Positions 864 to 46,961 of a DNA stretch of 47,078 bases are shown here, one piece after another (within the stretch, counting starts at the first letter, position 1; each line of letters begins with the position of its first letter). Both the position numbers and the translations under genes were made by a program. The notes beneath the pieces are model-generated. The model had not been told where the DNA came from, did no database searches, and saw nothing but the letters and a program-made list of their open reading frames with translations. Source of the DNA: Parcubacteria group bacterium GW2011_GWD2_43_10 (GTDB lineage: Bacteria; Patescibacteriota; Patescibacteriia; Veblenbacterales; UBA10138); the NCBI GenBank assembly GCA_000995845.1, contig LCEZ01000003.1, positions 1-47,078 of the forward strand, read 5' to 3'.

Positions 864-927
864 ACCCGAATTCATCCCTTTTCACCACTTTCCTATTTGC
901 CTAAATAGGAAAATACTCTACTTTCAC

Positions 928-957
928 CTGGCTCTAATTCGCGCGAATAGGCGAATA
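928..957. repeat. Palindrome-core repeat, short form, copy 1
   Basis: CTGGCTCTAATTCGCGCGAATAGGCGAATA. Contains the perfect 12-bp palindrome ATTCGCGCGAAT. Confidence 0.9.
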
Positions 958-31014: not shown

Positions 31015-31405
31015 TTTGCTCACCTCAACCTTATAAGCCGAATTCTGTACCCTGCGCGAGGCAGGGCGGTGATTATCTATCTAGATCCTGATTCGCACCA
31101 GGATTCAAGCTACCAACCCGTCCGCCAAGATGCGGACCTACTTGGTATTGCACCGGGTAGAGTTTACCTAGCCATCAATGTTGCCATAGATACTGGTGAG
31201 CTCTTACCTCACCGTTTCACCCCTATCTTCAATGATTTTATTAAAGTGGGTTTGTTTTCTGTTGTACTTGTCCTGCGATCCGATTACTCGGATCAACGGC
31301 TCCAATTAGGAGTTACCCTTCCCTTAAATTAGCGGGAACACTGTGGTGTTCGGACTTTCCTCTCCGTAAAATACGGAGCAATCACCTGGGTTGACGTAAG
31401 CGGCT
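31015..31405 (-). ncRNA. rnpB: RNase P RNA, bacterial type A
   Basis: The minus strand carries GAGAGGAAAGUCCG (plus 31351-31364) and ACAGAAUUCGGCUUAU (plus 31033-31048), the two P4 strands. Also GGUGAGGUAAGAGCUCACC. P1 GCUUAC/GUGAGC and P2 UCAACC/GGUUGA close the molecule. Confidence 0.85.
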
Positions 31406-46294: not shown

Positions 46295-46648
46295 ATGGAT
46301 TTTGCCAGTAAAAAATGCGTACCCTGCGAAGGCGGCATGGCGCCACACACTAAAGAAAAGGTGTTGGAGTATTTATCAGCTGTGCCTGGCTGGCAAGCCG
46401 ATAGTGAATTTAAAAAACTAAGCCGTGAATTTACCCTTAAAGATTTTAAAGCGGCTTTAAAGTTTATTAACCAAATAGGGGAGATAGCCGAGGCTGAAGG
46501 CCACCACCCCAATATTGAATTGTTTTCCTGGAATCATGTCAGGATTGTTTTGTATACCCATGCTATTAGTGGGCTTTCTGATAATGATTTCATCTTAGCC
46601 GCTAAGATTAATCAATTGTGGGGCAACCAAGTTTCAGCTAAGGCTTGA
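46295..46648 (+). CDS. Pterin-4-alpha-carbinolamine dehydratase (PCD/DCoH)
   Basis: CVPCEGG..., FKAALKFINQIGEIAEAEGHHPNI, LYTHAISGLSDNDFILAAKI. Confidence 0.9.
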   Translation: MDFASKKCVPCEGGMAPHTKEKVLEYLSAVPGWQADSEFKKLSREFTLKDFKAALKFINQIGEIAEAEGHHPNIELFSWNHVRIVLYTHAISGLSDNDFILAAKINQLWGNQVSAKA

Positions 46649-46673
46649 CTATAGCAATAAATATCAGTAGCAT
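46645..46673 (+). promoter_or_regulatory. Candidate promoter of the tRNA-Gln locus
   Basis: TTGACT (46645-46650), 17 nt spacer, TAGCAT (46668-46673). The first tRNA-like nucleotide is at 46686. Confidence 0.4.
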
Positions 46674-46685
46674 TGATAACCGCAG

Positions 46686-46754
46686 TGGGGGATCGTCCCG
46701 CCTCAGCGGGATAGGTCTAATGGTAAGCTGAAGCTTTCAGCCGGCGTTCGCTCA
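46686..46754 (+). other. 5' part of a Gln-like tRNA shell with a hairpin insertion in the D loop and a hairpin in place of the anticodon arm
   Basis: TGGGGGATCGTC (12/12 identical to tRNA-Gln nt 1-12), a 20-nt insert containing CCCGC-ctca-GCGGG, TAATGGTA, then GCTGAA-gct-TTCAGC. Confidence 0.6.
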
Positions 46755-46793
46755 ATAGTTTGAAAATGACATATTTAAATTCGTATTCACTGC

Positions 46794-46864
46794 TGGGGGA
46801 TCGTCTAATGGTAGGACACCACCCTTTGGAGGTGGCTATGATGGTTCGAATCCATCTCCCCCAG
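46794..46864 (+). tRNA. tRNA-Gln (anticodon TTG), CCA not encoded
   Basis: TGGGGGA-TC-GTCT-AATGGTA-GGAC-A-CCACC-CTTTGGA-GGTGG-CTAT-GATGG-TTCGAAT-CCATC-TCCCCCA-G. U1-A72 and G73 as in bacterial tRNA-Gln. Confidence 0.9.
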
Positions 46865-46895
46865 CAGTGCATAGGAAAATCATTTTTAAACTTTA

Positions 46896-46961
46896 TTCGC
46901 TCACTTGTCAGTATGATGGTTCGCCTGCCTCCCGTAGGGAGGAATCCATCTCCCCCAGCCA
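46896..46961 (+). other. 3' part of a Gln-like tRNA shell: T arm with a 19-nt hairpin insertion, acceptor 3' strand, G73 and encoded CCA
   Basis: TATGATGGTTCG (12/12 identical to the inner tRNA), CCTGCCTCCCGTAGGGAGG insert, then AATCCATCTCCCCCAG (16/16 identical) followed by CCA. Confidence 0.6.

What the first reader, a model, noticed from the sequence alone, without database searches (positions are those of the whole stretch)
46686..46961. Second nested tRNA locus: intact tRNA-Gln inside a Gln-like shell with hairpins inserted in the D loop, anticodon position and T loop
The shell 5' end, 46686-46697, is 12/12 identical to nt 1-12 of the inner tRNA-Gln (46794-46864).

A 20-nt insert follows (46698-46717, flanked by a GTC duplication) and carries CCCGC-ctca-GCGGG. 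Then comes TAATGGTA as in the inner D loop. In place of the anticodon arm there is the hairpin GCTGAA-gct-TTCAGC (46727-46741).

Downstream of the inner tRNA, 46912-46923 (12/12) and 46943-46958 (16/16) are identical to the inner variable/T-arm/acceptor sequence. They are split within the T loop by the 19-nt insertion CCTGCCTCCCGTAGGGAGG, whose last 15 nt form the hairpin CCTCCC-gta-GGGAGG. The shell, unlike the inner gene, encodes CCA.

An 8-nt direct repeat, TTCGCTCA (46747-46754 and 46896-46903), brackets a 141-nt segment that contains the inner tRNA. It resembles a target-site duplication. The flanks can also pair: TTTGAAAATGA at 46759-46769 with TCATTTTTAAA at 46880-46890, with one G-U.

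The same overall plan recurs on the opposite strand 2.3 kb away (locus 1). That argues against a one-off accident.
Basis: partly seen in the sequence, partly recalled or inferred. Interest (0 to 1): 0.8.

Follow-up and report, generated by a model that had tools for sequence, protein, structure and literature searches.

The report
Invaded tRNA gene with spare copy
The "tRNA inside a tRNA" is real: it looks like the wreck of the cell's own glutamine tRNA gene, split by a selfish DNA cassette that brings its own working copy of that tRNA, a kind of element that is widespread in tiny-genome (CPR) bacteria and that I could not find described.

Summary
The same arrangement occurs in about eleven independent assemblies, so it is not an artefact.

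The window is from a Patescibacteria (Veblenbacteria-like) genome. Relatives carry six other states at this same site (FtsE-FtsX-PCD-tRNA-Gln):
- a plain tRNA-Gln;
- a short 5' fragment ahead of a complete tRNA;
- the window-type cassette without the D-stem hairpin;
- two cassette forms with one type of small GIY-YIG nuclease gene, with or without a 3' shell;
- a cassette with another GIY-YIG type, bounded by inverted repeats.

In 16 other genomes the inverted-repeat cassette (repeat, nuclease ORF, complete tRNA-Gln, repeat) sits in the D loop of a resident tRNA-Gln. The two shell halves pair with each other and often differ from the inner tRNA, so the shell is the resident gene and the inner tRNA arrived with the cassette.

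The window copy has no ORF and is probably a decayed derivative. Its inner tRNA keeps cassette hallmarks: no encoded CCA and a covarying extension of the acceptor helix. Its shell keeps resident hallmarks: the conserved promoter and an encoded CCA.

The D-stem and T-loop hairpins are small insertions. They have empty sites and have relatives elsewhere.

The TTCGCTCA "target duplication" and the anticodon-position hairpin are not supported.

How the cassette moves is inferred, not shown.

The parts
46645..46673 (+). Promoter-like site TTGACT-17-TAGCAT just upstream of the shell. It is the resident tRNA-Gln promoter and probably drives the whole unit.
   Evidence: Consensus scan. The TTGAC(T)-17-TAnnAT layout is present upstream of the plain or nested tRNA-Gln in L094, L099, L100, L101, L103 and L104. 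Use as a promoter is inferred.
46686..46697 (+). Shell piece 1: nt 1-12 of the resident tRNA-Gln (acceptor 5' strand, nt 8-9, D-stem 5' strand).
   Evidence: 12/12 identical to the inner gene. It pairs with the shell 3' end in the predicted fold.
46698..46717 (+). D-stem mini-insertion: a 17-nt hairpin element (CCCGC-ctca-GCGGG plus an ATAG tail) and a 3-nt GTC duplication.
   Evidence: The site is empty (GATCGTC|TAATGG) in L099, L094, L101 and L104. A near-identical insert sits at the same position in the unrelated L027 shell. Other hairpins occupy the same 12/13 site in L100 and L097.
46718..46725 (+). Shell piece 2: D-loop nt 13-20 (TAATGGTA).
   Evidence: 8/8 identical to the inner gene. 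Also present in L099.
46726..46793 (+). Left spacer of the ORF-less cassette. It replaces shell nt 21-43 together with the inner gene and the right spacer. 46779-46793 is the 5' strand of the acceptor-helix extension.
   Evidence: The first ~46 nt are 43/46 conserved in L099, although the upstream intergenic DNA has diverged. Extension helix. No significant similarity to ORF-bearing cassettes.
46794..46864 (+). Inner, intact tRNA-Gln(UUG) with no encoded CCA. This is the working gene.
   Evidence: ARAGORN. Rfam RF00005, 64 bits. 71/71 identical to the inner tRNA that follows a GIY-YIG ORF in L100.
46865..46911 (+). Right spacer of the cassette. 46865-46878 is the 3' strand of the acceptor-helix extension.
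   Evidence: The window row pairs at 12 of 15 extension positions, 6 of them contiguous.
46912..46923 (+). Shell piece 3: nt 44-55 (variable loop, T-stem 5' strand, first part of the T loop).
   Evidence: 12/12 identical to the inner gene.
46924..46942 (+). T-loop mini-insertion: a 19-nt hairpin element, CCTG + CCTCCC-gta-GGGAGG.
   Evidence: Same family as 2215-2234 and 2543-2562 (17-18 of 19-20 nt). Those copies split an intergenic motif whose other copies are uninterrupted. It is shared by the L009-type variant of this locus.
46943..46961 (+). Shell piece 4: nt 56-71 plus an encoded CCA, the resident gene's 3' end.
   Evidence: 16/16 identical to the inner gene, followed by CCA. Synteny between strains breaks directly after it.
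44135..44437 (-). Second nest of the same kind. An intact tRNA-Thr(CGU) at 44318-44393 lies between inverted-repeat remnants (44405-44414 and 44295-44310). These lie inside a tRNA-Thr shell made of 44415-44437, 44251-44267 and 44135-44154, with a 96-nt GC-rich insert at 44155-44250.
   Evidence: The shell acceptor GCCGGTG/CACCGGC is self-complementary and differs from the inner GCCGAAG/CTTCGGC. The repeat core CTGCCC(C)GCC resembles the Gln-cassette repeat CTTGCCCCGCC (read by eye, no statistic).

Best explanation
The locus is the decayed product of an invasion of the resident tRNA-Gln gene by a selfish cassette that carries its own complete tRNA-Gln.

**Intact relatives.** The cassette consists of a small GIY-YIG nuclease gene (about 80 codons, UPF0213-like) followed directly by a tRNA-Gln whose acceptor stem is extended by about 15 base pairs. 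It always lies in the orientation of the resident gene, just downstream of that gene's promoter.
- In one type it sits in the D loop, bounded by the inverted repeats CTTGCCCCGCC...GGCGGGGTGAAG.
- In a second type it sits further into the 5' half and has no such repeats.

**Inferred mechanism.**
- The nuclease cuts an uninterrupted tRNA-Gln gene.
- Repair or transposition installs the cassette.
- The imported tRNA replaces the destroyed gene, so an essential tRNA gene can be hit without killing the host.
- The host tRNA promoter expresses both nuclease and tRNA.
- The split resident halves (the shell) are then free to decay. They collect 17-26-nt GC-rich hairpin mini-insertions and deletions.

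**The window copy.**
- The nuclease ORF is gone.
- The shell has lost nt 21-43 and carries two hairpin inserts.
- The unit is presumably transcribed from the resident promoter. The inner tRNA would then be cut out by RNase P (its RNA is encoded at 31018-31397) and 3' processing, with CCA added enzymatically.

**Shown:** the anatomy, the polymorphism at this very site, the family-wide architecture, the shell-versus-inner allele differences, and covariation of the extension helix.

**Inferred:** nuclease target and activity, the mode of movement, transcription and processing, and descent of the ORF-less window cassette from an ORF-bearing one.
For: 1. **Same site, different states.**
   - Strains with an identical PCD protein (L009/L010; also L095) carry: shell 5' | CTTGCCCCGCC | frameshifted GIY-YIG ORF | intact tRNA-Gln | GGCGGGGTGAAG | shell 3'. 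That shell 3' has the same T-loop hairpin as the window.
   - L100 (PCD 74% identical) has: 5' shell | intact 81-aa GIY-YIG | a tRNA 71/71 identical to the window's inner gene.
   - L097/L098 (61%) have shell | GIY-YIG | tRNA | shell 3'.
   - L104 (69%) has a plain tRNA-Gln with CCA.
   - L099 (78%) has the window-type cassette without the D-stem hairpin.
2. **Family-wide architecture.** 16 of 18 further or related Patescibacteria loci show the same repeat / ORF / tRNA / repeat architecture in the D loop of a tRNA-Gln.
3. **Shell and inner alleles differ.** In 7 of these loci the two shell acceptor halves complement each other but differ from the inner tRNA. L009's inner T stem differs from its shell by a compensatory pair. 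The Thr nest in the window behaves the same way.
4. **Serial invasion.** L016 is nested three deep, and its middle tRNA has its own extension helix.
5. **Extension helix.** It has 15 pairs, 14 with changes on both sides, and 90.7% of cells paired. Background tRNAs have 0-3 contiguous extension pairs; the window's inner tRNA has 6.
6. **Contrasting hallmarks.** The shell has the conserved promoter and CCA. The inner gene lacks CCA.
7. **tRNA linkage of the nuclease family.** 65 of 80 genomic loci have a tRNA gene within 500 nt of the nuclease gene. In 38 it starts within 15 nt of the ORF end on the same strand. Most protein calls read on into tRNA-Gln sequence.
8. **Not an artefact.** The arrangement occurs in about eleven assemblies from several projects.
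Against: - The window cassette has no ORF and no GC-rich terminal repeats. It retains the D-loop TGG that the repeat-type cassette replaces.
- Its spacers show no statistically significant similarity to either ORF-bearing type: nhmmer; local alignment, 37-129 of 500 shuffles for the window spacer. Descent therefore rests on position, architecture and the extension helix.
- In the window, shell and inner sequences are identical wherever they overlap, so import of the inner allele cannot be shown for this copy.
- The cassette's own tRNA keeps the presumed target sequence, so how a carrier avoids cutting itself is unexplained.
- No nuclease activity, cut site or transcript has been observed.
- The 5' shell and the first 46 nt of the spacer are conserved between the window and L099. 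This hints at some constraint that simple decay does not predict.
Confidence: 0.7

Rival explanations
1. Local tandem duplication. The site once held two or three plain tRNA-Gln copies, and the outer ones lost their inner parts by deletion, so no mobile element is involved.
For: In the window, shell and inner sequences are identical wherever they overlap. No ORF or terminal repeats are present in the window cassette.
Against: - No relative shows tandem plain copies. They show one plain gene or nuclease cassettes at this very site.
- The inner and shell copies differ systematically: CCA only in the shell, the extension helix only around the inner gene.
- In other genomes shell and inner are different alleles.
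Confidence: 0.08
2. Scars of integrase-type elements. Repeated integration and loss of islands that target tRNA-Gln left duplicated attachment-site fragments on both sides of the gene.
For: - Strain synteny breaks exactly after the shell's CCA: L001-type versus L002-type downstream genes.
- L104 has an intact tRNA followed about 170 nt later by a 3' fragment.
Against: - No integrase or recombinase family is listed among genes within 10 kb in either strain type.
- Integrase scars duplicate one end of the tRNA, usually the 3' end. They do not explain a 5' fragment plus a 3' fragment from one self-complementary gene.
- They also do not explain the GIY-YIG ORFs found in that position in relatives.
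Confidence: 0.1
3. A genuine interrupted or split tRNA. The shell is functional, and its inserts, including the inner tRNA, are removed at the RNA level, as in archaeal multi-intron or split tRNAs.
For: - Every insert is a helix that brings the shell pieces together.
- The 276-nt unit folds with the shell acceptor stem closed, at z = -5.2.
- The shell pieces are well conserved.
Against: - With all inserts removed the window shell lacks nt 21-43, including the anticodon, and ARAGORN finds no tRNA.
- The L009 shell is recognised only if TGG is restored at two sites.
- Shells in other genomes carry different and increasing numbers of inserts, while inner genes never carry any.
- The T-loop hairpin family also inserts in non-tRNA DNA.
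Confidence: 0.03
4. Assembly artefact. Strain variants of one tRNA locus were collapsed or chained by the assembler.
For: - Several relatives' contigs end inside this tRNA (L094, L099, L101, L103).
- L008 shows a collapsed Thr locus next to a run of N.
Against: The identical 276-nt arrangement occurs in about eleven assemblies from JGI, ENA and NCBI, made by different projects and assemblers.
Confidence: 0.01

Closest known systems
Free-standing GIY-YIG homing endonucleases, e.g. phage T4 SegB in the tRNA gene cluster (PMC2330249)
   Same: - A small GIY-YIG nuclease gene lies among or next to tRNA genes.
- It spreads together with flanking tRNA DNA by cutting the endonuclease-free allele (SegB abstract).
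- Presence/absence polymorphism occurs at one site.
   Different: - Here the gene sits inside the target tRNA gene and is always followed by a complete copy of that same tRNA.
- One type has conserved terminal inverted repeats and hairpin-only derivatives.
- The hosts are cellular (Patescibacteria, and related proteins in other phyla). No relative was found in viral contigs.
- The protein is UPF0213-like, about 80 aa, with no separate DNA-binding domain.
- Cleavage is untested.
Mitochondrial free-standing homing endonuclease genes that insert into a protein gene and bring a replacement for the displaced gene end (e.g. Allomyces atp6; from memory, not checked here)
   Same: - The invader carries a copy of the part of the target that it displaces.
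- The original part is left behind as a pseudogene fragment.
   Different: - Here the target is a tRNA gene.
- The whole gene is supplied, not just an end.
- Fragments are left on both sides, which gives true nesting, up to three deep.
tRNA-targeting integrative elements (phage or ICE integrases with attachment sites in tRNA genes)
   Same: - A tRNA gene is the target.
- The element restores an intact tRNA.
- A partial tRNA copy is left as a direct repeat.
   Different: - No integrase is present.
- The element is 0.15-0.4 kb rather than many kb.
- It inserts in the 5' half or D loop.
- A full tRNA is carried.
- Both 5' and 3' remnants belong to one former gene.
Archaeal multi-intron, split and permuted tRNA genes (PMC4090602; Fujishima 2010 as cited in PMC10714607)
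   Same: - Short helical inserts lie at D-loop, anticodon-loop and T-loop positions.
- The inserts look mobile between tRNAs.
   Different: - The host is bacterial.
- No bulge-helix-bulge motif is evident.
- Removing the inserts does not restore a tRNA.
- An intact copy is always present.
Very small dispersed hairpin repeats (cyanobacterial SDR elements, yeast mitochondrial GC clusters, Rickettsia palindromic elements; from memory)
   Same: The inserts are 17-26-nt GC-rich hairpins in an AT-rich genome. Their insertion is shown by empty paralogous or orthologous sites, including sites inside RNA genes and other repeats.
   Different: - Here one subfamily is exactly the two terminal repeats of a nuclease-bearing cassette.
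- That subfamily hits TGG-containing sites of tRNA-Gln shells.

Membership tests
tRNA (inner gene) | Cloverleaf and conserved positions, scored by a covariance model above the curated threshold | tested here: met
   RF00005 at 64 bits against a gathering score of 29. ARAGORN calls tRNA-Gln(ttg). All four stems covary across 20 homologues.
tRNA (shell as a functional interrupted gene) | Removal of the inserts restores a complete tRNA with an anticodon arm | tested here: not met
   The joined shell pieces give 51 nt lacking nt 21-43, and ARAGORN finds nothing.
GIY-YIG nuclease cassette (the element as a whole) | Encodes a GIY-YIG domain protein | tested here: not met
   There is no GIY-YIG ORF anywhere in the 47-kb window (tblastn). 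The feature is met only in relatives at the same site: L009 (repaired frame, E 2e-17), L097 and L100 (E 8e-15 and 9e-13). The window copy is therefore filed as a decayed derivative, not as an intact member.
GIY-YIG nuclease cassette (the element as a whole) | A complete tRNA of the target's identity directly follows the ORF, with a covarying extension of the acceptor helix and no encoded CCA | tested here: met
   The window's inner tRNA has 6 contiguous extension pairs and 12 of 15 overall, and it lacks CCA. Other tRNAs in the data set have 0-3 contiguous pairs.
GIY-YIG nuclease cassette (the element as a whole) | Terminal inverted repeats CTTGCCCCGCC / GGCGGGGTGAAG that replace the D-loop TGG | tested here: not met
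   They are absent from the window's Gln locus, and TGG is retained. They are present in L009 and 15 other loci. A similar repeat flanks the window's inner tRNA-Thr. Type-2 cassettes (L097, L100) also lack them.
Homing endonuclease element | Presence/absence polymorphism at one homologous site among relatives | tested here: met
   L104 is plain. L009, L097 and L100 are occupied. The window and L099 are ORF-less.
Homing endonuclease element | Site-specific cleavage of the element-free allele by the encoded enzyme | not testable with these tools
   This needs an enzyme assay. Several conserved positions typical of GIY-YIG nucleases are invariant or nearly so in alignment A1: Y6, Y16, G18, R27, H31, N32, E64. 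Their assignment as catalytic is from memory of I-TevI.
Homing endonuclease element | Insertion destroys the recognition site, so that the carrier is immune | tested here: inconclusive
   The shell site is destroyed, but the cassette's own tRNA keeps the same D-loop sequence. Three-deep nesting in L016 suggests that re-invasion does happen.
DNA transposon / MITE | Terminal inverted repeats plus a target-site duplication, with copies at several sites | tested here: inconclusive
   - The 8-nt repeat TTCGCTCA is near chance level (151/2000), and the segment was found at no other site.
- The 17-nt D-stem hairpin does have a 3-nt GTC duplication and an empty site.
- Repeat-only hairpins of the cassette occur at a second TGG site in shells.
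Integrase-type genomic island at a tRNA gene | A tyrosine or serine recombinase gene next to the tRNA, and a direct repeat of the tRNA 3' end at the far border | tested here: not met
   No recombinase family appears among the called genes within 10 kb. No further tRNA-Gln fragment lies in 10 kb downstream. The far border may lie beyond the data.
Archaeal-type tRNA introns | A bulge-helix-bulge motif at each exon-intron junction and a splicing endonuclease in the genome | not tested
   No formal motif search was run, and no whole genome was available. By eye the junctions do not form 3-nt bulges separated by 4 bp.

The most novel reading that the evidence does not exclude
The small UPF0213-like GIY-YIG proteins may be the mobility enzymes of a so-far undescribed class of prokaryotic mobile elements. 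These elements home or transpose specifically into tRNA genes, use the tRNA promoter, and carry a full spare copy of their target so that essential single-copy genes can be invaded.

On this reading:
- The inverted-repeat type behaves like a target-specific DNA transposon. Its 20-26-nt repeat-only hairpins would be among the smallest mobile DNAs known.
- Serial invasion would replace host tRNA alleles horizontally and build Russian-doll tRNA loci.
Probability: 0.35. Interest if true: 0.9.

Novelty: new variant of a known kind. Interest (0 to 1): 0.75.

Why it matters
- **A way round a basic constraint on selfish DNA.** An essential, often single-copy gene can be invaded if the invader brings a working copy and borrows the host promoter.
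- **A testable function for a nuclease family.** UPF0213-like GIY-YIG proteins are widespread and their role is unclear. Here 65 of 80 genomic loci have a tRNA gene within 500 nt.
- **Practical use for CPR genome work.** It would explain tRNA pseudogene fragments, hairpin-riddled tRNA-like sequences and contig breaks at tRNA genes in these metagenome-assembled genomes.
- **A route for horizontal replacement of tRNA alleles.**
- **Possible new enzymes.** If the enzymes prove sequence- or structure-specific for tRNA genes, they are compact site-specific nucleases.

Tried and rejected
1. **Descent of the window spacers from the ORF 3' end and linker of the repeat-type cassettes.** nhmmer profiles built from 17 loci did not find the window's flanks. 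Only the distal ATT..T / AG.AAA similarity and the helix remain.
2. **Descent from type-2 cassettes (L097, L100).** Local alignment scores were not significant: 37-129 of 500 shuffles for the window spacer and 43-439 for L099's. The shared left-end hexamer TAAGCT is only suggestive.
3. **TTCGCTCA as a target duplication, and the A/T-rich inverted repeat.** Both are near or at chance.
4. **The hairpin 46727-46741 as a conserved structure.** L099's two substitutions both break pairs.
5. **The 141-nt segment elsewhere.** BLAST against all fetched loci found nothing. The single metagenome scan found only the same strain.
6. **A phage vehicle.** No relative of the nuclease was found in viral contigs.
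7. **A named protein family.** There was no NCBIfam hit.
8. **Literature.** Seven full-text searches found no description of GIY-YIG plus tRNA cassettes or nested tRNA genes in bacteria. Subscription-only papers were not searchable.
9. **An integrated island bounded by tRNA-Gln fragments.** No second fragment lies within 10 kb.
10. **Enrichment of GC-rich hairpins near tRNA-like sequence.** A crude count gave 42 near versus 54 elsewhere in 130 kb. It points the expected way, but the marking of tRNA fragments was incomplete, so I do not rely on it.
Full report
**Observation**

Every sequence statement in the finding is correct at the stated coordinates.
- The inner gene, 46794-46864, is the only tRNA-Gln called. 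ARAGORN gives anticodon ttg. Rfam RF00005 scores 64 bits against a gathering score of 29.
- Around it lie four pieces identical to nt 1-12, 13-20, 44-55 and 56-71 of that gene, in order and in register. The last piece ends in CCA.
- A 20-nt insert splits the first two pieces. A 19-nt insert splits the last two.
- Nt 21-43 of the shell are missing. In their place are a 68-nt spacer, the inner gene and a 47-nt spacer.
- The identical arrangement occurs in about eleven independent assemblies from JGI, ENA and NCBI. It is therefore not an assembly artefact.

Two details do not stand up.
- An 8-nt direct repeat between the spacers is reached in 151 of 2000 shuffles.
- The A/T-rich inverted match is at chance, 545 of 2000.

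**Where the window comes from**

The window has 42% G+C. It carries a bacterial class A RNase P RNA, LepA, FtsE/FtsX and a pterin-4a-carbinolamine dehydratase (PCD) just upstream of the locus. Contigs encoding the identical PCD come from groundwater Patescibacteria (CPR) genomes. One protein fragment at the locus is named Candidatus Veblenbacteria by its source.

**The key evidence: the same site in relatives**

Downstream of FtsE-FtsX-PCD, and behind a conserved TTGAC(T)-17-TAnnAT promoter-like sequence, relatives carry very different states.
- **L104** (PCD 69% identical): a plain tRNA-Gln with CCA, and a 3' fragment about 170 nt further on.
- **L094 and L101:** an uninterrupted 5' part, after which the contig ends.
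- **L103:** a 10-nt 5' fragment, 26 nt, then the tRNA.
- **L099** (78%): the window-type arrangement, but with an empty D-stem site, GATCGTC|TAATGG.
- **L100** (74%): shell nt 1-23 with a different hairpin at the same 12/13 site, then TTAAGCT-ATG and an intact 81-aa GIY-YIG ORF. After that comes a tRNA 71/71 identical to the window's inner gene.
- **L097/L098** (61%): shell nt 1-31, a GIY-YIG ORF, the tRNA, then a hairpin-riddled shell 3' part ending in CCA.
- **L009/L010** (identical PCD) and **L095:** the following layout.
  - Shell TAGGGGATCGTCTAA.
  - CTTGCCCCGCC, a frameshifted GIY-YIG ORF, an intact tRNA-Gln, then GGCGGGGTGAAG.
  - TAGGACACCACCCTT.
  - A 26-nt hairpin made of just those two terminal sequences.
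  - AGGTGGCTATGATGGTTCG.
  - The same 19-nt T-loop hairpin as in the window.
  - AATCCATCTCCCCCAGCCA.

**A family of cassettes**

Homologues of the L009 protein are 52-66% identical. They are mostly called 110-139 aa long because the ORF reads on into a tRNA. The shared tail AAGSSNGRT..GSNPSPAA is tRNA-Gln translated. Several N- and C-terminal extensions are translations of the terminal repeats.

A scan of one genome per species found at least 284 relatives, of which 80 loci were fetched.
- 65 of the 80 have a tRNA gene within 500 nt.
- In 38 it starts within 15 nt of the ORF end on the same strand.
- The tRNA identity follows the lineage:
  - tRNA-Gln in Patescibacteria;
  - tRNA-Pro in Chitinophagaceae;
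  - tRNA-Val in Acidobacteriaceae;
  - tRNA-Ala in Chloroflexi and some Patescibacteria group bacteria;
  - tRNA-Glu in Microgenomates-type CPR.

Sixteen of 18 Gln-type loci share one architecture: shell 5' (..GATCGTCTAA) | CTTGCCCCGCCAAATTT-ATG..ORF | tRNA-Gln | ..AAATTTGGCGGGGTGAA(G) | TAGGAC.. shell 3'. In the shell the D-loop TGG/CGG is replaced.

The proteins match Pfam GIY-YIG. Their nearest solved relatives are the UPF0213 proteins 1zg2 and 1ywl, and SLX1. Y6, Y16, G18, R27, N32 and E64 are invariant and H31 nearly so in the alignment.

**Shell is resident, inner is imported**

- In 15 of the 16 canonical loci, the acceptor strand of the shell 3' end complements the shell 5' end.
- In seven loci (L011, L016, L017, L018, L021, L023, L024) that shell stem differs from the inner tRNA's stem.
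- L009's inner T stem (CATGG/CCATG) differs from its shell (GATGG/CCATC) by a compensatory pair.
- In the window's Thr nest, the shell GCCGGTG/CACCGGC encloses the inner GCCGAAG/CTTCGGC.

So the two shell halves once formed one gene, and the inner gene is a different allele that arrived with the cassette.

L016 is nested three deep, and its middle tRNA still has its own flanking helix. This is the expected outcome if a cassette's tRNA can itself be invaded later.

Several shells encode CCA, including the window's. Inner genes do not.

**A conserved extension of the acceptor helix**

In all Gln-type loci the 15 nt before the inner tRNA pair with the discriminator base and the 14 nt that follow. 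Those 15 nt include the last codons of the ORF.
- Across 20 sequences, 14 of the 15 pairs change on both sides and 90.7% of cells are paired. This is as good as the tRNA's own stems.
- Among 74 tRNAs in the data set not scored as ORF-adjacent, 71 have 0-3 contiguous extension pairs.
- The three exceptions are two tRNA-Ala genes 48-106 nt downstream of GIY-YIG ORFs, and the window's inner tRNA-Gln with 6 contiguous pairs, 12 of 15 overall.

The window's inner gene therefore carries the cassette's structural signature even though the ORF is gone. What the helix does is unknown. It might be a processing site, a barrier between translation and tRNA folding, or a DNA-level structure.

**The hairpins**

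*D-stem insert, 46698-46717.*
- It has an empty site in L099 and in the plain genes.
- It carries a 3-nt GTC duplication.
- It has a near-twin at the same position in the unrelated L027 shell.
- L100 and L097 have other hairpins at exactly the same 12/13 junction.

*T-loop insert, 46924-46942.*
- It belongs to a 19-nt family, CCTGYCTCYCGTAGGGAGR.
- That family also splits two copies (2175-2247 and 2503-2575) of an intergenic motif whose other copies (918-957, 1408-1447, 1705-1744) are uninterrupted.

These are therefore DNA-level mini-insertions, not tRNA-specific introns.

In other genomes the shells, but never the inner genes, carry up to three such hairpins. Some are repeat-only versions of the cassette ends, placed in the anticodon loop where they again replace TGG, or in the T arm.

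L099's two substitutions both break pairs.

With all inserts removed, the window shell is not a tRNA.

**How the window copy relates to the cassettes**

This is the weakest link.
- The window-type cassette, shared with L099, has no ORF and no GC-rich repeats, and it keeps the D-loop TGG.
- In layout it matches the type-2 locus L097: a 5' shell reaching into or past the D arm, and a 3' shell starting in the variable loop.
- Its left end begins TAAGCT, as in L097 and L100.
- Sequence similarity to either ORF-bearing type is not significant.
- I found the spacers nowhere else.

I therefore read it as an old, ORF-deleted derivative. It is already present in a species whose PCD is 78% identical. 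The 5' shell and the first 46 nt of the spacer are unusually conserved between the two (43/46), which simple decay does not explain.

**Mechanism (inferred)**

- The cassette always lies in the orientation of the resident gene and close behind its promoter. This would give both the nuclease and the spare tRNA a strong host promoter.
- The nuclease presumably cuts uninterrupted tRNA genes in the D-arm region. Repair from a cassette-bearing copy, or a repeat-dependent transposition, would install the cassette.
- The conserved repeats, and the repeat-only hairpins at a second TGG-containing site, favour a transposon-like step for that type. The repeat-less type 2 looks more like classical homing with duplication of the 5' exon.
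- In the window the unit would be one transcript. RNase P (its RNA is at 31018-31397) and 3' processing would then release the inner tRNA.

None of this has been observed directly. It is also unexplained how carriers tolerate a nuclease whose presumed target is preserved in the cassette's own tRNA.

**Rivals**

- Tandem duplication with decay, integrase scars, a true split or intron-containing tRNA, and assembly error are each contradicted by specific results. These are detailed in the rival explanations section.
- The integrase idea keeps some weight. Strain synteny breaks exactly after the shell's CCA, although no recombinase is listed within 10 kb.

**Comparison with known systems, and novelty**

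- The nearest known relatives in behaviour are free-standing GIY-YIG homing endonucleases such as T4 SegB, which sits among tRNA genes and drives their inheritance (PMC2330249).
- Also close are mitochondrial endonuclease genes that bring a replacement for the gene end they displace (from memory).
- The differences here:
  - the target is a cellular tRNA gene;
  - a complete spare tRNA with an extended helix is carried;
  - there are terminal repeats and hairpin-only derivatives;
  - nesting is serial.
- Seven full-text searches found no description, but subscription literature could not be searched.
- I rate it a new variant of a known kind. The window copy itself is a fossil, not an active element.

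Noticed in passing
window 44135-44437 (- strand): Second nest. An intact tRNA-Thr(CGU) at 44318-44393 is flanked by inverted-repeat remnants, CCTGCCCGCC (44405-44414) and GGCAGGCGGGGCAGTG (44295-44310). It lies inside a tRNA-Thr shell whose acceptor GCCGGTG/CACCGGC differs compensatorily from the inner GCCGAAG/CTTCGGC. There is no ORF. The locus is identical in sister strains.
   Followed up: partly
window 44155-44250 (- strand): A 96-nt, very GC-rich insert lies in the T arm of the tRNA-Thr shell. It is much larger than the other hairpin inserts and its nature is unknown.
   Followed up: no
window 44539-44573 (- strand): A 35-nt fragment resembling the 5' half of a tRNA-Gly(CCC), through the anticodon, lies 21 nt upstream of the intact tRNA-Gly (44444-44517). 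All three tRNA genes in the window are therefore preceded by a 5' fragment of their own kind.
   Followed up: partly
window 918-957, 1408-1447, 1705-1744, 2175-2247, 2503-2575: A repeated intergenic motif, GCTCTAATTCGCGCGAATAGGCGAATA, occurs five times. In two copies it is split by two ~19-nt hairpin inserts, one of the same family as the T-loop insert of the tRNA-Gln shell. The insertion point (..CG^AAT) resembles the T-loop site (TTCG^AAT).
   Followed up: partly
window 46962 onward; L001 10669 vs L002 8254: Strain synteny breaks directly after the shell's CCA(A). L001-type strains carry a different gene set there, at least 10 kb long and including an N6/N4 methyltransferase. No integrase and no second tRNA fragment were seen in that 10 kb.
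   Followed up: partly
L012 2501-2833, L014, and proteins P0001-P0035: The repeat-type GIY-YIG ORFs have no stop codon before the tRNA and stay open through it in one fixed frame (tail AAGSSNGRT..GSNPSPAA). Excision of the tRNA from the transcript would leave a stop-less mRNA, which might limit nuclease expression. Type-2 ORFs such as L100's have their own stop.
   Followed up: no
L016 1310-1995: A three-deep nest of tRNA-Gln genes. The outer shell is TGCCGG../CCCGGCAG with several hairpins. The middle TGGGGGA../TCCCCCAG has its own extension helix. The inner TGCGGGG follows an intact GIY-YIG ORF.
   Followed up: partly
L030, L040, L043, L091 and other non-CPR loci: Related GIY-YIG genes in other phyla are also tied to tRNA genes.
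- Chitinophagaceae have tRNA-Pro / ORF / tRNA-Pro arrays. In L030 the downstream tRNA-Pro has its D arm replaced by a CCCCGCC-ttg-GGGCGGGG hairpin.
- Acidobacteriaceae L043 has tandem arrays of tRNA-Val 5' fragments, each followed by a hairpin; L091 shows a similar ~75-nt-periodic series of tRNA-fragment matches.
   Followed up: partly
L094, L099, L101, L103 (contig ends); L008 7844-8382; L010 ~10390: Four relatives' contigs end inside the tRNA-Gln. L008 shows a collapsed Thr locus beside a run of N. L010 has a scaffold gap with duplicated sequence at the Gln locus. These tRNA nests seem to break short-read assemblies.
   Followed up: no
L025 1440-1500: Here a repeat-only hairpin (CTCGCCCCGCC-ata-GGCGGGGTAAA) sits in the shell's D loop, while the GIY-YIG ORF and tRNA follow after TAGGACA. 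The hairpin ends and the ORF-tRNA module can therefore occur separately.
   Followed up: no
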